Positions 5,101 through 18,801 of a stretch of DNA of 64,000 nucleotides are shown here, piece by piece. Positions within the stretch are counted from its first letter, which is position 1; each line of letters begins with the position of its first letter. Position numbers and translations under genes: made by a program. Below the pieces are notes generated by a model. That model was not told the DNA's origin. It made no database searches and saw nothing but the letters and a program-made list of their open reading frames with translations. Source of the stretch: Pseudogymnoascus verrucosus (taxonomy: Eukaryota); the NCBI GenBank assembly GCA_001662655.1, contig KV460219.1. One strand, 5' to 3'.

Positions 5101-5590
5101 ATCCAATTCTTAAATGAACGATCCGCCGCATACGCAAACAGGAAGCGTAGTATGGAACCTGCCTTCAAGGAGGGGGATAAAGTATACCTACTCTAGAAAC
5201 ACATCAAAACGAAACGACCAAGTACGAAGTTGGACTTTAAGAAATTGGGACCATTTAAGATATTAAACAAAGTCAGCTCAGTTAATTACAGACTGCAGCT
5301 ACCTAAGAACTCTAAACTCCACCTAGTGTTTCATGTCTCATTATTAGAACCAGCAAGAGGGGATGCCCCGATTGCGACAGATACCGAACTTCAACCCGAA
5401 AATGAGACCATCGAATATGAGGTCGAGGCGATCCTAGACAAAAGGTTAGTAGGACGCTAAGAAGAGTTTTTAATAAAATGGAAAGGTTACGAACCTACGG
5501 ACAACTCATGGGAGTCGAGGGGAAACCTCAGCTGCCTAGAGTTGCTAGCGGAGTTCCACCGTCGACACCCTAACGATCGAAGAACCTAGG
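2113..5590 (+). pseudogene. pol: pol of element A (protease, RT, RNase H, integrase, chromodomain), -1 frame to gag; 3' end approximate
   Basis: AMIDLGATGNF (DSG altered by RIP), VYLDDI near 3245, ETDSSDF RNase H, H..H..CDIC integrase zinc finger, IALDFIVKLP, EYEVEAILDKR...LIKWKGYEPTDNSWE chromodomain near 5413-5560. Confidence 0.95.
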
Positions 5591-6082
5591 GGAAAGGGCC
5601 GACAGGTAGTCGTGCTTAGGGACGGCGCTCCTAGGGTTAGTTACGGAAGGACTGGCAAGGTGACCGTGGGCTTCGGCTTCTTGCCGCTTACGTTCTTCCA
5701 CCTCCTCTAGTTCGTCAAGGGTCTTTAGACCACGGCGAAGCATCTCAGCACCTCGAGTCTTAAGGAGATCCTACTACTACTTAAGGCAGTTGAGACGGGC
5801 CATGGCAGTTGCCACGGCCTCGCGAGTCATGCGAGTTTCGAGTCGAAGACGGTCCTCTTCTTTCTGTAGCGACTGCTAGTCACTAGCAGAGGGACCAGAG
5901 ACATCACAGTTGCGGGAATTCGAACGAACACATTCATTACATCGTTTTGAGGATGCAGAAGCGAGGCAGCGGAGACCTCGTTTCTCGCAGCAGGAATAGG
6001 AAGGCATTTCAACCCCTTCGCGGGTTATGCGGTTAGCGAGCAGTTTACGTTCTTTGATTTTTAAGTGTTTAGAGGAAGACAT
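5528..6082 (-). pseudogene. antisense accessory ORF of element A: Zn2Cys6-like cysteine cluster plus coiled coil (184 codons, RIP stops)
   Basis: Single frame: MSSSKHLKIKERKLLANRITREGVEMPS[Y/C]SCCEKRGLRCLASASSKRCNECVRSNSRNCDVSGPSASD*QSLQKEEDRLRLETRMTREAVATAMARLNCLK***DLLKTRGAEMLRRGLKTLDELEEVEERKRQE...GGTPLATLGS-TGA; all internal stops are TAG, revertible to CAG/TGG. Confidence 0.75.
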
Positions 6083-6195: not shown

Positions 6196-6675
6196 TGTTA
6201 CGGCTGAAACATGCAACCCATATGCCGCAAGATAGAATAATAAGGTAAAATAGCTTGCAGCTAATTAGCAGCAGGAAATGGACGCAGAGATTGTAGGTAG
6301 CTTAGTTAATGAGGGCACCTTTAGGAAAAGGTACCTTTCTTAGAAGGTACCCGACAAAAGAAAGGTGCCTGTTAGGAAAGGCACCCGTGCAGAGCAAGGT
6401 GCCTCCTTAGAAAGGCACCTATGGGAATCAGTACCTACAATAAGTGTGGCACCTCTTATAGGACGCACACGTGATTGGATTAGTAGGAATAGTAAGAATA
6501 GTTAGAGAGTCTGCTATNNNNNNNNNNNNNNNNNNNNNNNNNNNNNNNNNNNNNNNNNNNNNNNNNNNNNNNNNNNNNNNNNNNNNNNNNNNNNNNNNNN
6601 NNNNNNNNNNNNNNNNNNNNNNNNNNNNNNNNNNNNNNNNNNNNNNNNTCTTATAGTTTAAGACCTAGCGTTACA
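6196..6675 (+). repeat. 3' LTR of element A (TG...CA), spans an assembly gap
   Basis: Starts TGTTACGG after the PPT and ends GCGTTACA like 186; reconstructed length about 529 bp using the inverted copy at 6676-7042. Confidence 0.9.
6518..6648. other. assembly gap (131 N)
   Basis: Run of n. Confidence 1.
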
Positions 6676-7042: not shown

Positions 7043-7110
7043 CTCCTCTATTAAGTAAACTAACGTAATAAAACCTCTATAAGTCTTATAGCTTAAGACC
7101 TAGCGTTACA
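7043..7110 (+). repeat. 3' terminal fragment of another family A LTR
   Basis: Matches window 119-186, ending gcgttaca. Confidence 0.9.
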
Positions 7111-7350
7111 TTAGGGCTATTATAGGTTAGTTGCAACTAATAGCCTTAGGCACATAGTATAAGGAAGCCTTAGGTAAATAAGGGGTTAGCTAAGTTAGAG
7201 TAGTTTTAAGTATTTAGGGGTATAGCTATAGAGGGTTATATCTTTATCTTTTTTATATCCTTTATAGTAGACCTATAGGATTGTACTAACTTCTATCTAA
7301 CTTATACTCCTATATATAACCTCTTATAATATAGTGCCCTATGTCCTTAT
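7111..7350 (+). repeat. 5'-truncated LTR of family B
   Basis: Matches about 8458-8700 (ttagggctgttataggttagttgcaac...gtgccctatgtcctta). Confidence 0.9.
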
Positions 7351-8401
7351 ATATATTAAGGGTATTTCTTACTACATTCTTATAGTTCTTATAGTTCTAT
7401 TTATACTTATATTAGAGGCCTTAGATATGCTGTCCTTTAGGGTATAAAAGCAATTGTTCTTTTTATAGAATAAGGCTAATCTAATCTATATTAGTTATGC
7501 TTTTATAAATCTCTCTAAGGCTTTGCCTATTATAGGACTTATAAAAGGTATACATTACTAGATTTTATAGTAACATATCTAGGTGAATATATTAATAATG
7601 TATTAGTAATGTATTAGTAATTACTTACTTATTATAAGTAAAGGGTCATTTATATACTAAATAATTAATATTAGGTCTAATATTAAAACTAATAGTATAG
7701 CTAAAGGAATTAGTAGTAGGTAAGAATGCTCTCTATAAGAAGTCTATAGAAAATAAGGGCATTCTTTAGTATTTATAGGCATAAATAACTAAAATGTAAC
7801 CTTATACTTATTATAAAGCTTTAGTTGTCCTTGCTCTTAAGGATGATTAATACCTAATATATTAGTAATATATTAGATTAAGAAGGAGGCTAGTAATTAC
7901 TACAATTTGCTTTTCTTATACTTGTCTGTTTAACAACATAACAAGACTTATATTTAGGTTTAAAATTAGGTAAAAAGCAACGTTCTAAATAAGGTAACTC
8001 CTTATAAAGTATAACCTATATTAGCTTAAAGTACTAGGCATTACTTACTAGAAATTTATTCTTATTAATATAAGAAATAAAGCATGAGAAATTACCTATA
8101 ACATTCTAATATATTAGTAATGCATTAAGAATGTATTAAGAATAATCTTACTTGTTAATTTAAGTAAATGAAAGAAGGCTTATAACTATCTAAACAGTCT
8201 TGTCTATATGCCTTCTTCTATTTAAATTACAAATTCACTATAATAAATAGGCTGTCTAATAATGTGTTAGTAATATATTTATAATATATTAAGGATTATA
8301 TACCTATTTACCTCTATACGCTAGGTAGAGATTAATCTCTACTCCTATAGATTAATTATTTTCTAAAAATTAGAGGGTAATAATTAAGTATGATTTATAC
8401 T

Positions 8402-8700
8402 TATAAGGATGCCTCCTTACTTAGGGTAGTTACAGCTGTTATGTGGCGCCATCGAGACTTAGGGCTGTTATAGGTTAGTTGCAACTAACAGCCTTAGGCA
8501 CATAACGTAAGGAAGCCTTAGGCAAATAGGGAGCTAGCTAAGTTAGAGCAGTTTTAGGTATTTTAAAGGAACAGCTATATAGGGTTACACCTTCATCTTT
8601 TTTATATCCTTTATAGTAGACCTATAGGATTGCACTAACTACTATCTAACTTACACTCCTATATACAACCTCTTGTAATATAGTGCCCTATGTCCTTACA
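8402..8700 (+). repeat. 5' LTR of element B
   Basis: T(g/a)taaggatgcc...tgtccttaca; direct repeat of 15899-16197 and 16861-17159. Confidence 0.95.
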
Positions 8701-8749
8701 TTATATAAAAAAGATCACGCCTACTAGGGACAGCTATACGTAAATAATA

Positions 8750-10320: not shown

Positions 10321-13300
10321 GGAAAGGCTCCTTCCTAGGTCTACGTAAATGTAATCTATAAAGACTAGATTTACAAGAACTCTTAGGAGGCTCCTAATTT
10401 CTCGTTAATACAACCCTAAGTATAAACGGACTTAGGGTGCAAACGAAGTCACTTATAGACATAGGAGCAAATGGCTACCTTGTCATTAATAAGCCTTTTG
10501 TGCAATGGTTGTCGAAAGCGCTTTAGAGCCCTATATAGAAACTGCCCTACTCTATACCTATATGTAGATTTTAGCGAAATATCTAAAGCTATGTATTAGA
10601 GTATATTCAGTTACACTTAACAGTTAAAGGACGCTAAATATATAACTGCCCCTTTGTGCTCCTAGATCTTAGAGCACAAGATGTAATAATTAGGAAGAAG
10701 CTTTTTAGCTGCTTCTAAATCCTACTCGACTCTATAAAGAGCTAGCTAGTATAGCTAAAGGAGTACCCGCCTACTCCTAGCTAGAGTAAAGAGATTACCT
10801 TGCCCTACTACTTATGTAAACTATTTATACATCACCCTGCCTATTAATTAGATGCGAACTAGCAGGACGATGCTATTAACTATAACGATAGACGACATGA
10901 GGGCAGACGCTCAATACTAATAAAAGTGATAACAGCCTATTATAACGCTATTATGATTACCCTACTAAGCTTAGTACAAGACAAGGGAACGACCTACCTA
11001 CACCCTAAAACCCTAAGGACACGAGCCTCACTTATAGAAACCTATAAAGACAGACCCTTAGGATAAGTGGAGGCAAAACCTCTAAGAAACGGACCATCTA
11101 TATATGAAAGAAAGAACTATAGGAGGAGTAGAGTTGTCTCTCCCTCCTAACGCTAGACCCTATTACGTAGCTTTACACTAGTCTAAATTTGTAAGATTAG
11201 CGCAAACGCTTTCTACTATGAGATGATGCGAAGCGACTCTAAGTTCTTTACAACAAGCATCTACAAGATCGACTAGATCATCTAGGAGAGGGAAGCAGCT
11301 AAGGACAAAGAAACGCTCTGCCTTATTTAGGACAAGCTTCTACATATGCACCACAACTATTCTAATGTCTTCTTAAAGTCAGAATCTAATCAGCTTCCCC
11401 TACATTACATATACAATCATAAGATACAACTAGAAGCCCCTTTACTAAATGCCTTTTCGCTACTATACTAACAAAGTACTAAAGAGCTTAAGGCAACTAA
11501 GTAATACCTATTAGAGAACCTTAAGAAGGGCTTTATAGTTAATAGCAATAGCCTGTTTACCTCCCCTATACTGTTCGTAAAGAAGGCAGATGGCAAACTA
11601 AGATTTTGTATTAACTACTAGAAGTTGAACGGACTTACCTATAACAACCCCTACCCTATCCTACGTATCGACGAACTACTAGGACAGGTGTTGAAAGCAA
11701 AAATCTTTACAAAGCTAGACATTAGGCAAGCCTTCCATCGTATACGAATGGACCCTAACTCTAAAGAGTACACGACCTTCTAAACTCAATATAGATCCTA
11801 TAAATGCAAAGTGCTGCCGTTTAGTCTAACGAACAGCCCTGCAACCTATTAGAGGTATATAAACGACGTTCTTATGCAATACTTAGACAACTTCTATACT
11901 GCCTACCTAGACGACATCCTAATCTACTCTAAGGACCCTACAGAACACATAGACTACGTATATAAGGTTCTATAACAGCTTTAAGAAGTAGGACTACAAG
12001 CTGACATTAAGAAATGCAAGTTCAACGTAACCTAGACAAAGTATTTAGGCTATATCCTAACTACTACTAGTGTTGAAGCAGATCCTAAGAAGATCGAACC
12101 CCTCTAGAATTAGATCTAGCTAACAACTATCATAGGCGTGAAGTCTTACCTTAGATTCTACAGCTTCTACTACTAATTTATTAGAAATTTCAGGAAAATA
12201 GCCAAGCCTCTTACTACTATCACTAGCCCCTTAGAACCGTTTCTATAGACTAACGAATGTAAGAACGCTTTTAAAGAAATGCGCCAACAGCTTTTAGCTG
12301 TGTAGGCGCTCTACCACTTCAACCCTAAATTGCCTACGAAGCTAGAAATAGACTCCTCTAACGGAGTTGTAGCTAGTGTTCTTTCTTAAGAACACCTAGA
12401 CAAGTAATGGTATCCTATAAGCTTCTATAGTTACGTCCTATCTAGGCACAAGATTAATTAGGAGATCTACAACAAGGAACTGTTCGCTATCATAAAAGCG
12501 TTTGTAAAATGGAGGCTAGAATTAACATTAGTACGCTACTAAATCGACGTTTACACCGATTACTAATCACTAGAATACTTTATAACGACGAAGGTTCTTA
12601 TGGCAAAGTAGGTTTAGTAGATGGAGCTACTCTCTAACTTCAACTTCTATATTACATATATAGCTAGTAAGAACAATTAGAAGGTAGATATACTAAGCTA
12701 AAGAGAGTAAGACCTAATTATATAGTAGAAGGTCAAACTAGACAGCTGTATAAGGGTGCTTTTAGGCCTAGCCCAACTACACCCCTAAATTAGTGCTAAA
12801 TTAGCATAAATGTACATAGCCTTAATTAATGCAATAGACGCCCTAAACACCTAGGTCCCCTTTAACCTAATAGAAGCGCTCTACGCAGATAATAGGAGGT
12901 CGTTTACTAACACTTACACAAAAGACCCCCTACCTAATGGGTTTATAATAAAGGACTAACTATTGTTATATAAGGGTCAACTATACATAACCTAGCACAC
13001 TAAGTTATATACAAAACTCATATAGGAAGCACACGATCAAGTATTAGTAGCCTACCCTAGTAGTAGAAAAACTTATTAGTTACTTGCCCTAAAGTATCAT
13101 TAGGTTAGAATGAAAGCGGATTGTCTCTAATACGTACGTAACTACATAACGTGCCGACTTACTTACACTAACGTCACGAAGTAGTAAGGCTTCTTACACC
13201 CCCTACTAGTACTAGAATACTCTATGTAATACCTAACGATGGACTTTAAGGAATTCCTAAAGGATAAACACAGATTCGACAGCATCCTTGTGTTTATAGA

Positions 13301-14400
13301 CTGACTTAGTAAGGGTTCAGTGTCTATACTATGTCATAAGACTACTAATGCCTGCTAAATGGCGTAGCTATTCATCGAATGGATATATTGATTTAGACAC
13401 ACCCTAGAGTTAATCATTAGTAATCGCAGACCCTAATTCATATTAGCTTTCTAGCGAGAGTTCTGCTAAATTATAGGGGTTAAGATTAAGCTGTTAACAG
13501 CCTATTATAAGCAGACTAACAGGCAGACGGAAATTATGAATTAGTATATTAATTAGAGACTAAGGCCCTTTGTATCACATTACTAGGATAACTAGAGCAA
13601 GCTCATTCCCATTATAGATCAGGTGTAAATGACCCTTCCCTATGCCTTAATCAGAATGACCCCCTACTAACTTAAGTACAGAACTAATCTACGTACTAGT
13701 TAGGACTAGGAAACCCTAAAAGCCACGACCCCTAGGGAAATCATAAACTAGAAGGAAGCTAAAGCAGTAGCAAACTACATACACTCTATATAGATTTATA
13801 TAAAGGAGAACATAGCTAAAGCACAAGAGGATATGTCTAAATACACAAATTAATACTAACGAGCTATTAACTAGGACGTAGGAGACAAGGTTTACCTATT
13901 AACTAAGAATCTAAAAAATCACTACCCTAGCTATAAGCTAGGGCAACAATAGGTTAGACCCTATATAGTACTAGAACAAATCGGACACGCCTTCTAACTA
14001 GACCTACTAAAGGGTTCCTAAATACACAGTGTCTTCTCTCTAGACATACTCATTAAGGCTCTAAATAACCTGCTGCCTAGTTAAGTAGCGCCTAAGCTAA
14101 GCAGTAAAGTTGTAGACAGCCTAGAGGAGTAGGAGGTCGAAAAGATCCTTACTATAAGGATCTAGTGAAAACAACTTTAATACTAGGTATCCTAGGTTAG
14201 ATACAATCTAGACCTAGAATGGTACCCTGCCTTAAACTTTAAGAACTCCCCCTACAAAATCTAGGAGTTCTACGTAGAGTACCTAAACCTACTAGGACTG
14301 CTATAGGACCTACCTAGCTAGATCACAGAATAGGAGATAGGCAAACTAAGCTACGATTATAAGAGGCACAGCAAAGCAGAGGAAAACAGCGTCGTTGCTA
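10302..14400 (+). pseudogene. pol: pol of element B (protease, RT, RNase H, integrase, chromodomain); end approximate
   Basis: LID[I/T]GANGY at 10452, [25 protein letters not shown] near 11901, RNase H, integrase core, E*EVEKIL...WYPA.NFKNSP chromodomain near 14125-14280. Confidence 0.92.
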
Positions 14401-14583
14401 CCTATAACACTAAACTAAACACCCTCTAAGCTAGGGCACCCTTAGAGCTATAGCCCTTATAGAAGCCACCCTTCCTAAACGTCTCACTAGCGTTGTAACA
14501 AGCAGCTACTACCATAAGAGACGAAGGGTCAAAGTGACCCTACGTAAAAGACCACGCCTAAGTTCCCTCCGACATAGGGCCTA

Positions 14584-15330
14584 TCACCTAAGGTTAACGG
14601 CCACCCCCTCCTCCTCTACCTCCTCCGCCCCCCTCTTCCTCTTCTTCCCCCTACTACCGCCTACCTTCGCTACTATAGCAAGGGCGTTAGGGATCCTCTC
14701 TACTAACTCCCCTACTACATCCACTGTAGAAGCCACCCCATTAAGGGTAGCGATCTCCTTCTCCTAGTTCACTAGGATTAGGGCTGATTTCTAGCCTACG
14801 ACAGCTACAGCCTAGCGGACCCGCTACAGTCGTTAGCACGAGAACTAAAAACACATAAGGGAAATGGAAAACTTACCTCTAGACTGTCCTTAACAGCAGC
14901 GCAGAGGGCGCAACTCTCTATATAGGCCGAAAGCTTGGCTAGGGAGCGGAACTTCGGCATATTAGTAGTAGCTAATGTAACTACATGCCTAATCTCCGCT
15001 ATAGCGGCCTTAATAGCAGTAGGGACAGGAGGGGTTGCTGCCTCAGCAGCTAGGAGCTTCTAGTACTCTAGGCTAGCAAACTAGGAGATCTATCTCTAGA
15101 GGTTAGCGACGGGCAGATAGACAAACCACAAAACCGAAAGCTAAACGAGAACCTACTAGAACACACGTTGCATGTTAGGCCACGTAGCGCTTATACTTAG
15201 AGCTTTCTAAGCTCTACATACACAAGACGGCAGGATCTCCGTCCTTCTTATGCCCTTTAGCGTGTACATAGCGCATACACTGCTAGCAGAAAGCTATAGT
15301 AAGGGCGCTAGGAGGAGGGGGAACTAGCAT
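14584..15330 (-). pseudogene. three-exon antisense accessory gene of element B: six-Cys cluster with C-terminal KKRKR
   Basis: Exon 1 (15330-15157): MLVPPPPSALTIAFC*QCMRYVHAKGHKKDGDPAVLCM*SLESSK[Y/C]KR[Y/C]VA*HATCVL; introns 15156-15090 (GTAGGT..GCTAAC..TAG) and 14876-14824 (GTAAGT..GCTAAC..TAG), both phase 0; last exon ends GGSRGKKRKRGAEEVEEEGVAVNLR-TGA. Confidence 0.72.
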
Positions 15331-15898
15331 CTTTAAATTAGAAATCTACAATTTCCTATTAGCCTAACCTAAGTTATCACTACCGCGCTAGCGTGGTTCC
15401 GTCACCTACCAAATCGTTAGTTGTGTTTTTGTATCTAAAAACAACCTGTTAGCATCTAGCTATACTATTAGAAGGGCTACTTACTAGTCTTAGGAGGGGG
15501 GGTTAGCGTCGTTGTTGTAAAGAAAACAACAAGTTGTAGGCGAAGCTTGAATTTATATTCTAGCTTATAACAAAGCCGTCTAAATCAGGTTAGCGCTAAA
15601 TTTCCCCTTTACATTAAAATTCTACAACAACATATATACTACGCAGACTCTATTTAATACTAATACAGACCCTCGCCTACTAATCGCCGTGTACACAACA
15701 AAGATGCAACTTTGCGTAAACGGATTTAGACTACTTCTAGTGCCTATACAGCTGCCTACCATTAGCCTTCTAGACAAACAAAGGGCATTCTAGTCTTAGC
15801 GCCTACACCTTACCTACTAACCTAACTAAGGGCTCGTTGCAGCAGCTACTTAGCTTGCGTGCTTTAAGGACAAAGCACCTTCTTAAGGCAGGGGGTAG

Positions 15899-16197
15899 TA
15901 TAAGGATGCCTCCTTACTTAGGGTAGTTACAGCTGTCATGTGGCGCCATCGAGACTTAGGGCCGTTATAGGTCAGTTGTAACTAACAGCCTTAGGCACAT
16001 AACGTAAGGAAGCCTTAGGCAAATAGGGAGCTAGCTGAGTTAGAGCGGTTTTAGGTATTTTAAGGGAATAGCCATATAGGGTTACACCTTCATCTTTTTT
16101 ATATCCTTCGTAGTAGACCTATAGGATTGCACTAACTTCTATCTAACTCACACTCCTATATGCAACTTCTTATAATACAGTGCCCTATGTCCTTATA
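15899..16197 (+). repeat. second (internal) LTR of element B
   Basis: Direct repeat of 8402-8700, preceded by the PPT. Confidence 0.95.
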
Positions 16198-16860
16198 GAT
16201 CTCTGTCCTTCTTACGCCCTTTAGCGTATACGTAGCACATACACTACTAGTAGAAAGCTACAGTGAGGGCGCTAGGAGGAGGGGGAACTAGCATCTTTAA
16301 ATTAGAAATCTACGATTTCCTGTTAGCCTAACCTAAGTTATCACTACTACGCTAGCGCGGTTCCGTTACCTACTAAATCGTTAGTTGTGTTTTTGTATTT
16401 AAAAACAACCTGTTAGTATCTAGCTATACTATAGAAGGGCCACTTACTAGTCTTAGGAGGGGGGGTTAGCGTCGTTGTTGTAAGGAAAACAACAAGTTGT
16501 AGGCAAAGCTCAAATTTATATTCTAGCTTATAACAAAGCCGTCTAAATTAGGTTAGCAAAAAATTTCCCCCTTACATTAAAATTCTACGTTAACACATAC
16601 TACATAGACCCTATTTAATACTAATACAGACCCTTGCAACACTAATTACTACACACACAACAAAGATGCAACTTTACACAAACGGATTTAGACCACTTCT
16701 AGTGCCTATATAGCTGCCTACCATTAGCCTTCTAGACAAATAAAGGGCATTCTACTCTTAGCGCCTACACCTCACCTACTAACCTAAACAAGGGCTCGTT
16801 ACAGCAGCTACTTAGCTTACGTGCTTTAAGGACAAAGCACCTTCTTAAGGCAGGGGGTAG
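16198..16860 (+). repeat. second copy of the element B 3' internal region (matches 15234-15898)
   Basis: gatctctgtccttcttacgccc matches gatctccgtccttcttatgccc at 15234 and stays colinear to the PPT, with independent RIP changes. Confidence 0.93.
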
Positions 16861-17159
16861 TGTAAGGATGCCTCCTTACTTAGGGTAGTTACAGCCGTTA
16901 CGTAGCGCCATCGAGACTTAGGGCTGTTACAGGTTAGTTGCAACTAATAGCCTTAGGCACATAACGTAAGGAAGCCTTAGGCAAATAGGGAGCTAGCTAA
17001 GTTAGAGCGGTTTTAGGTATTTTAAGGGAACAGCTATATAGGGTTACACCTTTATCTTTTTTATATCCTTCATAGTAGACCTATAGGATTGCACCGACTA
17101 CTATCTAACTTACACTCCTATATGCAACCTCTCGTGATACAGTGCCCTATGTCCTTACA
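16861..17159 (+). repeat. terminal 3' LTR of element B
   Basis: TGTAAGG...CCTTACA followed by TSD ATACT. Confidence 0.95.
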
Positions 17160-18801
17160 ATACTCTTAATATTAGGATCTAAGTATTTATAGTATTTAAC
17201 TCCTAAGCAGTTATATATATACTAGTTACACCTAGTATGTAGGAAAGTATAGAACTAATCCTTAATAGGCTAGTATGTAAGCTTCTTGTAGTATTAGACC
17301 TAATATATTATTAATATATTATTAATCTTTTATATAATGACTTATATTTTATAAGTTTAGTATAAGTTGCTTCTTTGTTAAACCTCTAGTATTAACTAGA
17401 TACGTAATACTAGATTCTTAAGTATTTAGATACTCTAGTAACAAGCTTATAGTAATAACCTAATAAACTATAATAGCCTAGCCGTTTGTAGCAGAGTAGA
17501 TTAAAGTAGGATCCTTATTTAATTAGTAATGTATTAAGAATGTATTAGGAATGTATTAGGAATGTATTACATCATCTTCTTCATTCTCTACTTACATAGG
17601 TTCCTGCTTAGGTTTAGAGTCGTTAAATTTACTAAATCCGTCTTTGTTGATATCCTAGGGGGTATAATTAATTAAGGGTAACACTTCTAACTTAAGTAAG
17701 TTAAACTCTTCTAGATACGTCGACATATTAATGCATTGTTAATATATTAGATGCATTTACGTTAATTGCATAAATGAATAAAAGACAAGTTTAAGCTGAC
17801 CTTTAAGCTTAAGACGAGTTTCCACTTATACCCTCTAAGCTCGGAAAAATTACTAAGCGTCGGAAAATTAAAAGTGGAGAAAATCGGCAGCTTTGAGCTA
17901 ACCCCGGCGCCCTGCCTCACGTGTATCCTCGCAGCGGTGGCGACGGCAGCGATAAAAGAGCGGAATTACGTATGGACGCTAGGGCTGACAATTGTAGAGG
18001 TTTATTGTGCTGTAAAAGCTTGTCGCGACAGAAGGTTTATTCAATTAATGGAGAAAGCCGCCGATTTTGGCAGATATTGACCACTTTTTGCTCCCGCTTG
18101 AGAGGGTAAGGTTACATGACACATCCCCATCTCGTTATGGCCAGTTAGAGACCTGTCGAAACGGATAAACAAAGCTGGCTCCGTTACCTGGGGCTAAGCC
18201 ACATTGTTGATCGTCGTTGATCGCTAATGATTGGCATCCGACTTAGGAAGGGCGTAGGACAGAGGCTCGGGCTGTGCCGCCGGCTAAGCCCCGCAAGCTT
18301 CGTTTACATGTGTGCAAGTCTGGACAAGCGCCTTATTGTAAACCGTCAACATGTTTATCCAGCCAACCCCCATCTTTCGCCCTCATTCTTCTAGATCCTT
18401 TGTACTGTGCCTCATCTGTACCAAAAGCAGACCAACTATGCCTACGGTAGCTACAGCACGGAGCCTGTTCAGACACTTCTGTCGTCTGTCTATTCGTCGA
18501 TCCTTTCTCCCCTAATGTCTTGTTTTTGTACTGTACCTTAGGGTCGGCTCTGCGTCCCTTCCCGGCCTCCCCTTGCTTTTCCTTCCAACTGTTGGTAATA
18601 TAGGGCCAACAGACACTATAATTAGCTGTCACTTTCCCCCCTTTTCCCCATTCATTTCTTCTCTCTTTCTTTACGACTTTCCAAATTACTGTTTCTTAGT
18701 CTTCCTCGTCTTGCTCAAGTCCAGCCTCACTGTCGTTCCAGGGTAGTCTTCATTCGTCACGTACCAACTCACCCAATTCGACCAACCCAACACCAGCAAC
18801 C

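What the first reader, a model, noticed from the sequence alone, without database searches (positions are those of the whole stretch)
14584..15330. Element B also carries an antisense six-cysteine gene, with two spliceosomal introns and an NLS-like tail
Seen: a minus-strand three-exon model with canonical donors (GTAGGT, GTAAGT), GCTAAC branch points and TAG acceptors keeps frame from ATG 15330 to TGA 14584. De-RIPed exon 1 reads C-x2-C-x18-C-x8-C-x2-C-x6-C (two Cys restored from TAT/TAC) and the end has GKKRKRG plus an acidic patch. The duplicate at 16198-16295 shows TGC/TAC alternation at the first Cys, confirming RIP converts Cys to Tyr here. Inference: antisense introns survive retrotransposition because the sense genomic RNA is not spliced at them, and their retention implies a separate antisense mRNA. 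Two families with unrelated LTRs sharing position, orientation and Cys-cluster type points to a general accessory-gene system of fungal chromoviruses.
Basis: partly seen in the sequence, partly recalled or inferred. Interest (0 to 1): 0.85.

Follow-up and report, generated by a model that had tools for sequence, protein, structure and literature searches.

The report
Dead antisense regulator gene in retrotransposon
This stretch is a mutation-killed copy of a real, intron-containing gene that a family of fungal Gypsy retrotransposons carries backwards between pol and the 3' LTR, and whose intact protein looks like a miniature Gal4-type DNA-binding regulator.

Summary
The three-exon minus-strand model (15330-14584) is collinear, residue for residue, with a 208-aa Pseudogymnoascus protein. 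All 45 of 45 differences, including 8 internal stops, are C>T/G>A (RIP-type) changes. The real motif is C-x2-C-x15-C-x8-C-x2-C-x6-C.

It is not a one-off capture. An exhaustive search gave 50 representatives, about 48 of them credible. In 10 of 15 metagenome loci a Gypsy pol converges on the gene; the other 5 contigs end too early to judge. Intron 1 sits at the same phase-0 site, with canonical signals, in 12 of 14 loci.

The N-terminal domain models as a Zn2Cys6-like fold: only Gal4-type domains are returned, but at weak scores. A long helix, a basic cluster and an acidic tail follow. Intact relatives carry many CGG-N8-CGG direct dyads.

An antisense gene (brtn) is already published for Boty elements of Botrytis. 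Homology to it could not be tested. No RNA data were obtained.

The parts
15157..15330 (-). Exon 1 of the antisense gene. ATG at 15330. Encodes the MP-x-P-x-P-x-G-A-L leader and the Cys domain. RIP-damaged: 3 stops, 3 Cys>Tyr, 1 Arg>Cys.
15090..15156 (-). Intron 1, 67 nt, phase 0. GTAGGT ... GCTAAC ... TAG. Lies directly after the C-x-P codons.
   Evidence: the same site in 12 of 14 related loci
14877..15089 (-). Exon 2: helical region with the (I/L)-(P/S)-W-F start and the conserved P-K-F-R / E-x-x-A-L-R stretch.
   Evidence: (i-E 1.9e-23)
14824..14876 (-). Intron 2, 53 nt. GTAAGT ... GCTAAC ... TAG.
   Evidence: P0001 is collinear across the junction. Canonical second introns nearby in L001, L002, L003 and L005. 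None in L012, L014, L006 or L007.
14584..14823 (-). Exon 3: end of the long helix, basic cluster and acidic tail. Stop TGA at 14586-14584.
14629..14649 (-). GKKRKRG basic cluster (NLS-like). The acidic run AEEVEEEG follows.
   Evidence: Basic-then-acidic ends recur in family members.
16202..16303 (-). Second, truncated copy of the start of exon 1, inside the tandem duplication 16198-17157.
11577..14297 (+). pol of element B, RIP-degraded. Pfam finds RVT_1, RNase H, Integrase_H2C2 and SH3_Tf2-1. The C-terminal motif lies at 14265-14297, and the frame's tail runs to about 14400. It converges on the antisense gene.
   Evidence: Intact relatives also show rve and a near-threshold Chromo domain.
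8404..8703 (+). 5' LTR of element B (300 bp).
15899..16200 (+). 3' LTR of element B. The antisense ATG lies about 570 bp inside it. A further LTR copy is at 16863-17162.
5578..6082 (-). Comparison feature: the unspliced antisense ORF of element A, in the same position and orientation. Its Cys spacing is C-x2-C-x6-C-x8/9-C-x2-C-x6-8-C and a coiled-coil region follows.

Best explanation
The interval is a RIP-inactivated copy of a conserved gene. A lineage of Ty3/Gypsy (chromovirus-type) retrotransposons carries this gene on the antisense strand, between the end of pol and the 3' LTR.

The intact gene has one to three exons and encodes a protein of about 200 aa. Its parts are:
- an N-terminal cysteine domain with a Zn2Cys6-like (Gal4-type) fold;
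- a helical region ending in one helix of about 75 residues, of coiled-coil type;
- a basic NLS-like cluster;
- an acidic tail.

Proposed mechanism. The gene is transcribed from its own promoter, in or next to the 3' LTR. Its introns survive retrotransposition because they are antisense to the genomic RNA, so only the antisense mRNA is spliced. The protein enters the nucleus, probably as a dimer. It binds the CGG-N8-CGG direct dyads that are scattered along intact elements of this lineage, and so tunes the element's own transcription or chromatin. The direction of that effect is unknown.

Shown here: gene identity, RIP decay, family, position, conserved intron, the exclusive but weak Gal4-type fold matches, and dyad enrichment.

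Inferred: expression, splicing, zinc binding, dimerisation, DNA binding and regulatory effect.

My odds: a real conserved antisense accessory gene, 0.95. A Zn-cluster-type nuclear DNA-binding protein, 0.65. That it reads the dyads, 0.35.
For: Identity and decay. The spliced model is collinear with P0001 (208 aa, Pseudogymnoascus sp.) with 163 identical residues. All 45 of 45 differences are reachable by C>T/G>A from a codon of the P0001 residue. In the reverse direction 0 of 45 are, and the random-codon control gives 13%. RIP indices of the interval are TA/AT 2.67 and (CA+TG)/(AC+GT) 0.72, against 0.73 and 1.13 in host DNA.

Family. 50 representatives reach E<=1e-3 and 20 reach E<=1e-10. Named members come from Pseudogymnoascus, Stipitochalara, Diplocarpon, Cadophora and Didymella.

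Element linkage. pol lies on the opposite strand just downstream in 10 of 15 loci. The other 5 are not assessable. In L001 and L002 the pol frames are open over 1196 and 1282 codons.

Intron. GTAAGT/GTATGT/GTACGT...YAG of 45-54 nt follows directly after C-x-P in 12 of 14 loci. Between L002 and L005, exon 1 differs at 6 of 165 sites, all synonymous. Intron 1 differs at 9 of 54 and exon 2 at 7 of 186.

Fold. The AF2 full-length model has pLDDT 86.8 and helix 108-183. The N-domain model has pLDDT 78.1. All 12 of 12 Foldseek rows are Zn2Cys6 DNA-binding domains (Leu3, Pho7, LAC9, Gal4, AlcR, Put3). The only 3 of 48,161 chains with VIA Z>=2 are Gal4 or LAC9. The B profile aligns to the A profile over all six Cys, and 20 of 27 A-family members touch Pfam Zn_clus (best E 2.1e-4).

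Sites. Same-strand TCGG pairs at exactly 11 nt number 27, against 0.48 expected, and 0 of 300 shuffles reach that. Direct CGG-N8-CGG occurs 93 times in 27 kb of B-like loci, where other spacings give 5-38. Host DNA has 21 in 40 kb, with no peak at N8. CGGN8CGG is the canonical site of the Zn2Cys6 factor AmyR (PMC4943734, passages).
Against: No transcript evidence was obtained.

Fold matches are below significance: best Foldseek E 1.4 and TM 0.48-0.51, best VIA Z 3.1.

0 of 43 B-family members touch Pfam Zn_clus at E<=1.

The first Cys loop is 11-16 residues, not the 6 of the canonical family.

Only four Cys are conserved at 90% or more. A subgroup (L006, L007, L012-L014, P0040) lacks the second and third Cys yet still carries dyads. 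That fits poorly with a strict two-zinc cluster reading the dyads.

Dyads also lie inside pol coding sequence, and some are shared at matching places by related elements. The 70 dyads are therefore not independent.

The dyads could serve a host AmyR/MalR-type factor instead.

Co-divergence of pol and the antisense protein is weak. Mantel r is 0.62 (15 of 5000 permutations reach it), but this leans on one near-identical pair. Spearman rho is 0.10, p 0.60.
Confidence: 0.6

Rival explanations
1. The protein is real and element-encoded but is not a sequence-specific transcription regulator. The small zinc domain and long helix act as an adaptor. Possible roles are escorting the cDNA or integrase complex into the nucleus, tethering to chromatin, or blocking host silencing. 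The dyads are read by a host Zn2Cys6 factor of the AmyR/MalR type that the element exploits.
For: Only four Cys are near-invariant, and a subgroup lacks two of the six. Pfam Zn_clus is silent for B. CGGN8CGG is already the site of a host factor. Dyads persist in the Cys-poor subgroup.
Against: Every fold match returned is a Gal4-type DNA-binding domain. The order of parts (Zn domain, long helix, basic cluster, acidic tail) is that of small Gal4-type factors; this comparison rests on established knowledge, not a call. The dyad enrichment is specific to this element lineage. It is absent from element A and from host DNA.
Confidence: 0.25
2. It is a host gene, or a fragment of one, captured once by this copy, and not part of the element's own gene set.
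For: Some family members sit as single annotated genes on long contigs, for example in Stipitochalara and Diplocarpon. Their surroundings could not be inspected.
Against: All 10 assessable loci of the 15 show the same convergent pol, in elements only 39-52% identical in pol to the window's element. A second, unrelated element in the same window carries a related gene at the same place.
Confidence: 0.03
3. There is no gene. The exon-intron pattern is a chance arrangement in RIP-mutated DNA, echoed by automatic gene predictors.
For: The window copy has 8 internal stops. Public models of relatives are inconsistent: chimeric, truncated or intron-retaining.
Against: Spliced frames are open in unmutated relatives. 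Intron 1 evolves about four times faster than the flanking exons, and all six exon-1 changes are synonymous. Family-wide conservation supports a model of pLDDT 86.8. Stops lie inside in-frame introns, exactly where splicing would remove them (L001, L014).
Confidence: 0.02

Closest known systems
[quoted passage not shown] 2011, Virology 417:248). I saw it only as cited and paraphrased in PMC8365987, PMC7264820, PMC4227169 and PMC5987419. The paper itself is not held.
   Same: An extra gene lies between pol and the 3' LTR, antisense to gag-pol. The element is a Leotiomycete Gypsy whose pol has a chromodomain (passages).
   Different: Sequence relation is untested, because no BRTN sequence was available. 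The rows and the cluster look-ups showed no row named BRTN and none from Botrytis or Sclerotinia. Most metagenome rows and about half of the 50 representatives carry no name. I could not learn whether brtn has introns, a Cys domain or an NLS.
Plant antisense accessory ORFs between pol and the 3' LTR: maize Grande gene23, rice RIRE2, and Retand elements with the TRP28 domain (PMC7264820, PMC11963269; passages).
   Same: Same position and orientation, and conserved across copies of a family. The Grande protein is nuclear. TRP28 is predicted to bind DNA, and a regulatory role is proposed.
   Different: They belong to non-chromovirus plant lineages and to unrelated protein families. The word 'intron' does not occur in either paper's text. 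Here the protein is a fungal Zn-cluster type and the gene has conserved spliceosomal introns.
HBZ of HTLV-1 (antisense, nuclear; as described in PMC11963269, passages). Its bZIP nature and its spliced mRNA starting in the 3' LTR are recalled, not taken from a call.
   Same: A retroelement makes a small nuclear factor with a dimerising helix from the antisense strand at its 3' end. In the recalled account the mRNA is spliced.
   Different: It is an animal retrovirus, and the DNA-binding fold is unrelated (bZIP against Zn cluster). This is an analogy only.
Fungal Zn2Cys6 binuclear-cluster transcription factors (Gal4, Leu3, Put3, Pho7, AmyR; Pfam PF00172).
   Same: Six Cys in three pairs. The fold matches are exclusively to this class. 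A helical dimerisation-type region follows the cluster. The candidate sites are CGG half-sites with the N8 direct spacing known for AmyR.
   Different: The protein is only about 200 aa, with no middle homology region. The first loop is 11-16 residues instead of 6. There is no Pfam match in family B. Two of the six Cys are dispensable in a subgroup. The gene belongs to a mobile element, not the host.

Membership tests
Antisense accessory genes between pol and the 3' LTR of LTR retrotransposons (brtn / Grande gene23 class) | Lies between the end of pol and the 3' LTR | tested here: met
   The pol tail ends near 14400, the gene spans 14584-15330 and the LTR starts at 15899. The same layout holds in 10 of 15 loci; the other 5 are not assessable.
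Antisense accessory genes between pol and the 3' LTR of LTR retrotransposons (brtn / Grande gene23 class) | Antisense to gag-pol | tested here: met
   The gene is on the minus strand and pol on the plus strand. tblastn places pol on the opposite strand in all 10 assessable loci.
Antisense accessory genes between pol and the 3' LTR of LTR retrotransposons (brtn / Grande gene23 class) | Conserved across copies and related families of the element | tested here: met
   50 representatives. 15 metagenome loci. Exons are more conserved than the intron between L002 and L005.
Antisense accessory genes between pol and the 3' LTR of LTR retrotransposons (brtn / Grande gene23 class) | Transcribed from its own promoter | not testable with these tools
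   No RNA holder was listed, and no genome is held.
brtn protein family itself | Sequence homology to BRTN of Botrytis cinerea | not tested
   No BRTN sequence could be obtained. No row named BRTN or from Botrytis appeared.
Zn2Cys6 binuclear cluster (Pfam PF00172) | Spacing C-x2-C-x6-C-x5-12-C-x2-C-x6-8-C (the canonical formula is recalled, not from a call) | tested here: not met
   Family B has C-x2-C-x11-16-C-x8-9-C-x2-C-x6-C. Family A of the neighbouring element does meet the spacing.
Zn2Cys6 binuclear cluster (Pfam PF00172) | All six cysteines conserved | tested here: not met
   Only C18, C43, C46 and C53 are conserved at 90% or more in A5. L006, L007, L012-L014 and P0040 lack the second and third Cys.
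Zn2Cys6 binuclear cluster (Pfam PF00172) | Match to the Pfam model above its curated score | tested here: not met
   0 of 43 B members match at E<=1. In family A, 20 of 27 match at E<=1 with best E 2.1e-4, but the first member scores 13.7 bits against a cut-off of 21.
Zn2Cys6 binuclear cluster (Pfam PF00172) | Fold of the DNA-binding domain | tested here: inconclusive
   12 of 12 Foldseek rows and 3 of 3 VIA rows are Gal4-type domains. The scores are weak: E 1.4-9.3, TM up to 0.51, Z 2.2-3.1.
Zn2Cys6 binuclear cluster (Pfam PF00172) | Binds two zinc ions and CGG-containing DNA | not testable with these tools
   Only indirect evidence: CGG-N8-CGG dyads are enriched in intact elements.
Ty3/Gypsy chromovirus (the host element) | RT, RNase H and integrase in that order, plus a C-terminal chromodomain | tested here: inconclusive
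   Window element B shows RVT_1, RNase H, Integrase_H2C2 and SH3_Tf2-1 but no Chromo hit. The relative L001 has Chromo at 23.5 bits against a cut-off of 25.1, and L002 has none at E<=1e-3. Element A has Chromo at E 1.3e-13.

The most novel reading that the evidence does not exclude
A lineage of fungal retrotransposons carries a complete private regulatory circuit. One part is a spliced antisense gene for a miniature Gal4-type factor. The other is a dozen or more copies per element of that factor's binding site, the CGG-N8-CGG direct dyad, spread through the LTR-proximal region, the gene's own introns and even pol coding sequence. The element could then sense and set its own activity, or mark its own DNA, much as complex retroviruses do with Tax or HBZ. 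A second element family in the same window has a related gene, so such circuits may be widespread among ascomycete Gypsy elements.
Probability: 0.3. Interest if true: 0.85.

Novelty: new variant of a known kind. Interest (0 to 1): 0.62.

Why it matters
Extra genes in LTR retrotransposons are known, but almost none has a mechanism. Here the fold, the domain order and a sharply defined candidate binding site give a directly testable hypothesis: an element-encoded Zn-cluster factor that reads CGG-N8-CGG dyads.

The conserved antisense introns also matter. They would be sequence-level evidence that a retrotransposon keeps a separately spliced antisense message through many rounds of reverse transcription.

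In practice, these genes are routinely mis-annotated as host 'hypothetical proteins' or fused into chimeric host gene models. The family profile could clean up fungal annotations.

Tried and rejected
- The whole genome of the window is not held, so no copy census or family consensus was possible.
- Earlier notes of this scan: none.
- Sequencing runs: no RNA holder was listed for 14300-15800.
- Pfam on the window frames and on P0001 and P0002: nothing.
- PDB by sequence with the family profile: only weak coiled-coil rows, best E 0.029.
- Foldseek with the full-length model: no row below E 4.7.
- VIA wide search with the full-length model: only the long helix matched generic coiled coils, at Z about 7. 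I therefore folded the N-domain alone.
I repeated it with the tighter alignment A3.
- Complex prediction for a homodimer was not available, so dimerisation is untested.
- The Zhao et al. 2011 paper is not held. The held supplements of PMC8365987 do not mention brtn.
- Literature searches for a Zn-cluster antisense gene in fungal LTR elements found nothing beyond brtn. 'LTR Retrotransposons in Fungi' (PMC3248453) and the crapaud paper (PMC10787394) contain no occurrence of 'antisense'.
- Locus tags of the P. destructans models occur in no searchable paper.
- A RIP-tolerant search for dyads in the window's own element B was uninformative. Only 7 TCGG are left.
- Element A shows no CGG spacing peak.
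- The second intron of L008 and L009 could not be pinned to canonical sites. A frame change at that place is all that is seen.
- No de-RIP consensus was built, because natural intact homologues answered the question.

Full report
Setting. The window's first 17 kb holds two Ty3/Gypsy elements on the plus strand.

Element B has 300-bp LTRs at 8404-8703 and 15899-16200. A further LTR at 16863-17162 belongs to a tandem duplication of 15234-16195. Its pol frame carries RVT_1, RNase H, Integrase_H2C2 and SH3_Tf2-1. It is heavily RIP-mutated: TA/AT is 2.08 for the internal part and 2.67 for the finding's interval, against 0.73 in the neighbouring host DNA. The pol tail ends near 14400. The 3' LTR starts about 1.5 kb later, which is far more room than a polypurine tract needs.

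The observation. The ATG is at 15330. Donors are GTAGGT (15156) and GTAAGT (14876), GCTAAC branch-type motifs lie at 15107 and 14837, both acceptors are TAG, and the stop is at 14586-14584. Exons are 174, 213 and 240 nt and introns 67 and 53 nt. The spliced frame has 8 internal stops.

Identity. I searched the protein collection with the unspliced frame, reading stops as X. This returned P0001, a 208-aa hypothetical protein of Pseudogymnoascus sp. VKM F-103. Its 90% cluster also holds three P. destructans models.

P0001 has the same length as the spliced model and is collinear with it across both junctions. Of 208 positions, 163 are identical. All 45 differences can be produced from a codon of the P0001 residue by C>T or G>A alone. 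None can in the opposite direction, and random codons reach 13%. The eight stops are six Gln and two Trp in P0001. The window copy is therefore a RIP-killed pseudogene of a gene that is intact elsewhere.

Correction to the motif. TGC and TAC are thus two steps of RIP on an Arg codon. The true cysteines are C18, C21, C37, C46, C49 and C56 of P0001, giving C-x2-C-x15-C-x8-C-x2-C-x6-C. Three of them are Tyr in the window.

A family tied to the element. An exhaustive HMMER search with P0001 gave 50 representatives at E<=1e-3. I judged two of them (P0049, P0052) spurious repeats by eye. Named members come from several Pseudogymnoascus species, Stipitochalara, Diplocarpon, Cadophora and Didymella. 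Many others are from metagenomes, on short contigs.

A metagenome scan with a ten-member alignment returned 15 loci. In 10 of them tblastn finds a Gypsy pol on the opposite strand, ending a few hundred bases downstream of the gene. These pol sequences are 39-52% identical to the window's pol B. The other five contigs have 540 nt or less beyond the matched N-terminal part and cannot be judged. In L001 and L002 the pol frames are open over 1196 and 1282 codons, with the full domain set. A one-off capture is excluded.

Introns. The codon after C-x-P is followed at once by GTAAGT, GTATGT, GTACGT or GTAAGR. An intron of 45-54 nt then ends in YAG just before (I/L/V)-P-(W/D/I)-(F/Y).
- This holds in 12 of the 14 loci that contain the site. 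It is 10 of 12 if the near-identical pairs L002/L005 and L010/L011 each count once.
- L006 and L007 are intronless there, and L015 ends too early.
- In L001 and L014 the intron is in frame but contains stops.
- Several public gene models simply read through it.
- Between L002 and L005, exon 1 differs at 6 of 165 sites, all synonymous. Intron 1 differs at 9 of 54 and exon 2 at 7 of 186.
- A second intron with canonical signals lies a few codons after the E-x-R-A-L-R motif in L001, L002, L003 and L005. It is absent in L012, L014, L006 and L007. Its position varies by some codons, so a common origin is not established.

No transcript data could be obtained.

What the protein looks like. With 43 sequences, AlphaFold gives a confident model (pLDDT 86.8). 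It has a compact N-terminal domain, two helices, then one helix from 108 to 183 and a disordered basic-acidic end. The whole model finds only generic coiled coils.

The N-domain modelled alone (pLDDT 78.1) returns 12 Foldseek rows, and all are Zn2Cys6 DNA-binding domains. These are Leu3, Pho7, LAC9, Gal4, AlcR and Put3, with best E 1.4, TM about 0.5 and rmsd 2.2 Å over 37-40 columns. In the Foldseek-independent search, only 3 of 48,161 chains reach Z 2, and all three are Gal4 or LAC9. The scores are weak, as expected for 55 residues, but the answer is exclusive.

Against strict membership of the Zn2Cys6 family: Pfam Zn_clus is silent for family B (0 of 43). The first loop is too long. Only four Cys are near-invariant, and a subgroup lacks two of the six.

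Element A. The second element in the window has RT through Chromo, with Chromo at E 1.3e-13. It carries an unspliced antisense ORF at 6082-5578, in the same place. Its family has 29 hits and the canonical spacing C-x2-C-x6-C-x8/9-C-x2-C-x6-8-C, followed by a strongly conserved coiled-coil motif. Of its members, 20 of 27 touch Pfam Zn_clus below threshold. Profile-profile comparison aligns all six Cys of families A and B (probability 76%, E 2.2e-5). The two accessory genes are probably distant relatives.

Candidate binding sites. The fold suggested CGG half-sites, so I counted CGG pairs. In the LTR-to-pol interval of ten intact loci, same-strand TCGG pairs at exactly 11 nt number 27, against 0.48 in dinucleotide shuffles (0 of 300 reach it). 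At 22 nt there are 10, against 0.49.

Over whole loci the d=11 counts are 12, 15, 16 and 4, with about 0.35 at other distances. In 40 kb of the window's host DNA the count is 1, in element A it is 0, and the RIP-mutated element B keeps only 7 TCGG in all. Among all geometries and spacings, direct CGG-N8-CGG stands out at 93 occurrences in 27 kb. The next highest is N19, one further 11-nt step, at 38, and the remaining spacings give 5-25.

The 70 dyads have the consensus RTCGG-RGNGGWT-TCGG. They lie in both orientations: in the gene's introns, in untranslated parts and inside pol. Some sit at matching places in related elements, so they are not independent events. CGGN8CGG is the canonical site of the Zn2Cys6 activator AmyR (PMC4943734, passages). 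This fits an element-encoded factor reading its own DNA. It fits recruitment of a host factor equally well.

What is known. An 'additional antisense gene brtn' between pol and the 3' LTR of Boty-like elements of Botrytis, also seen in Sclerotinia, was published in 2011. I saw only citations and paraphrases and could obtain neither the paper nor the protein. No row named BRTN or from Botrytis or Sclerotinia appeared among the named rows I looked up. About half of the 50 representatives remain unnamed to me. Plant Grande, RIRE2 and Retand elements have antisense ORFs in the same position, some nuclear or predicted to bind DNA.

My searches found no description of a Zn-cluster-type, intron-bearing antisense gene in fungal LTR elements, nor of the dyads. 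The library lacks most subscription journals.

Verdict. The kind of thing is known. What appears new is the protein family with its Gal4-type domain, the conserved antisense introns, a related gene in a second element family, and the CGG-N8-CGG arrays. Together these give a concrete, testable mechanism.

Noticed in passing
L001, L002, L008, L012 (whole loci); also L003, L004, L007, L009, L013, L014: Intact relatives of element B are peppered with direct dyads TCGG-N7-TCGG (CGG-N8-CGG) at exactly 11-nt spacing, 4 to 16 per locus. They occur in both orientations, including inside the antisense gene's introns and inside pol. They are absent from host DNA and from element A.
   Followed up: yes
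window 5578-6082 (-): Element A carries its own unspliced antisense ORF between pol and the 3' LTR. It has canonical Zn2Cys6 spacing and an invariant M-L-R-R-G-L-x-x-L-D-E-L motif. Its family has 29 database hits, mostly on short metagenome contigs.
   Followed up: partly
window 15234-16195 and 16198-17157: A tandem duplication (91% identity) of the last 665 bp of the internal region plus the LTR. As a result the element ends in two '3' piece + LTR' units. Each unit starts inside exon 1 of the antisense gene.
   Followed up: no
window 7043-7354 and 119-186: A truncated LTR of element B (7111-7354) abuts the 3' end of element A. A 68-nt repeat at 119-186 and 7043-7110 marks the LTR ends of element A. 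This suggests A inserted into, or recombined next to, a B-type LTR.
   Followed up: no
window 6518-6648: A run of 131 N lies inside the 3' LTR region of element A. It is either an assembly gap or a withheld stretch.
   Followed up: no
P0002, P0003, P0020, P0061 (public gene models): Fragments of the antisense gene are fused by automatic annotation to unrelated host-like parts. These are an acetyltransferase-like N-terminus, an adenylation-enzyme-like 515 residues, a BTB domain, and an upstream extension reading towards the LTR. All are probably annotation chimeras at insertion sites.
   Followed up: partly
L006, L007, L012, L013, L014; P0040: A subgroup of the family has lost the second and third cysteines (C-x-R-A, E-Y/F-G/R-F). 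Some members gained a Cys at position 5. L006 and L007 are also intronless. The pol sequences of L007, L012 and L014 group together at 74-76% identity.
   Followed up: partly
L010 6069-6469, L011 398-798: Two metagenome contigs hold a RIP-like, AT-rich dead copy of the same gene. Its GTAAGT...TAG intron is still recognisable, so the window is not the only place where this gene has been killed by RIP.
   Followed up: no
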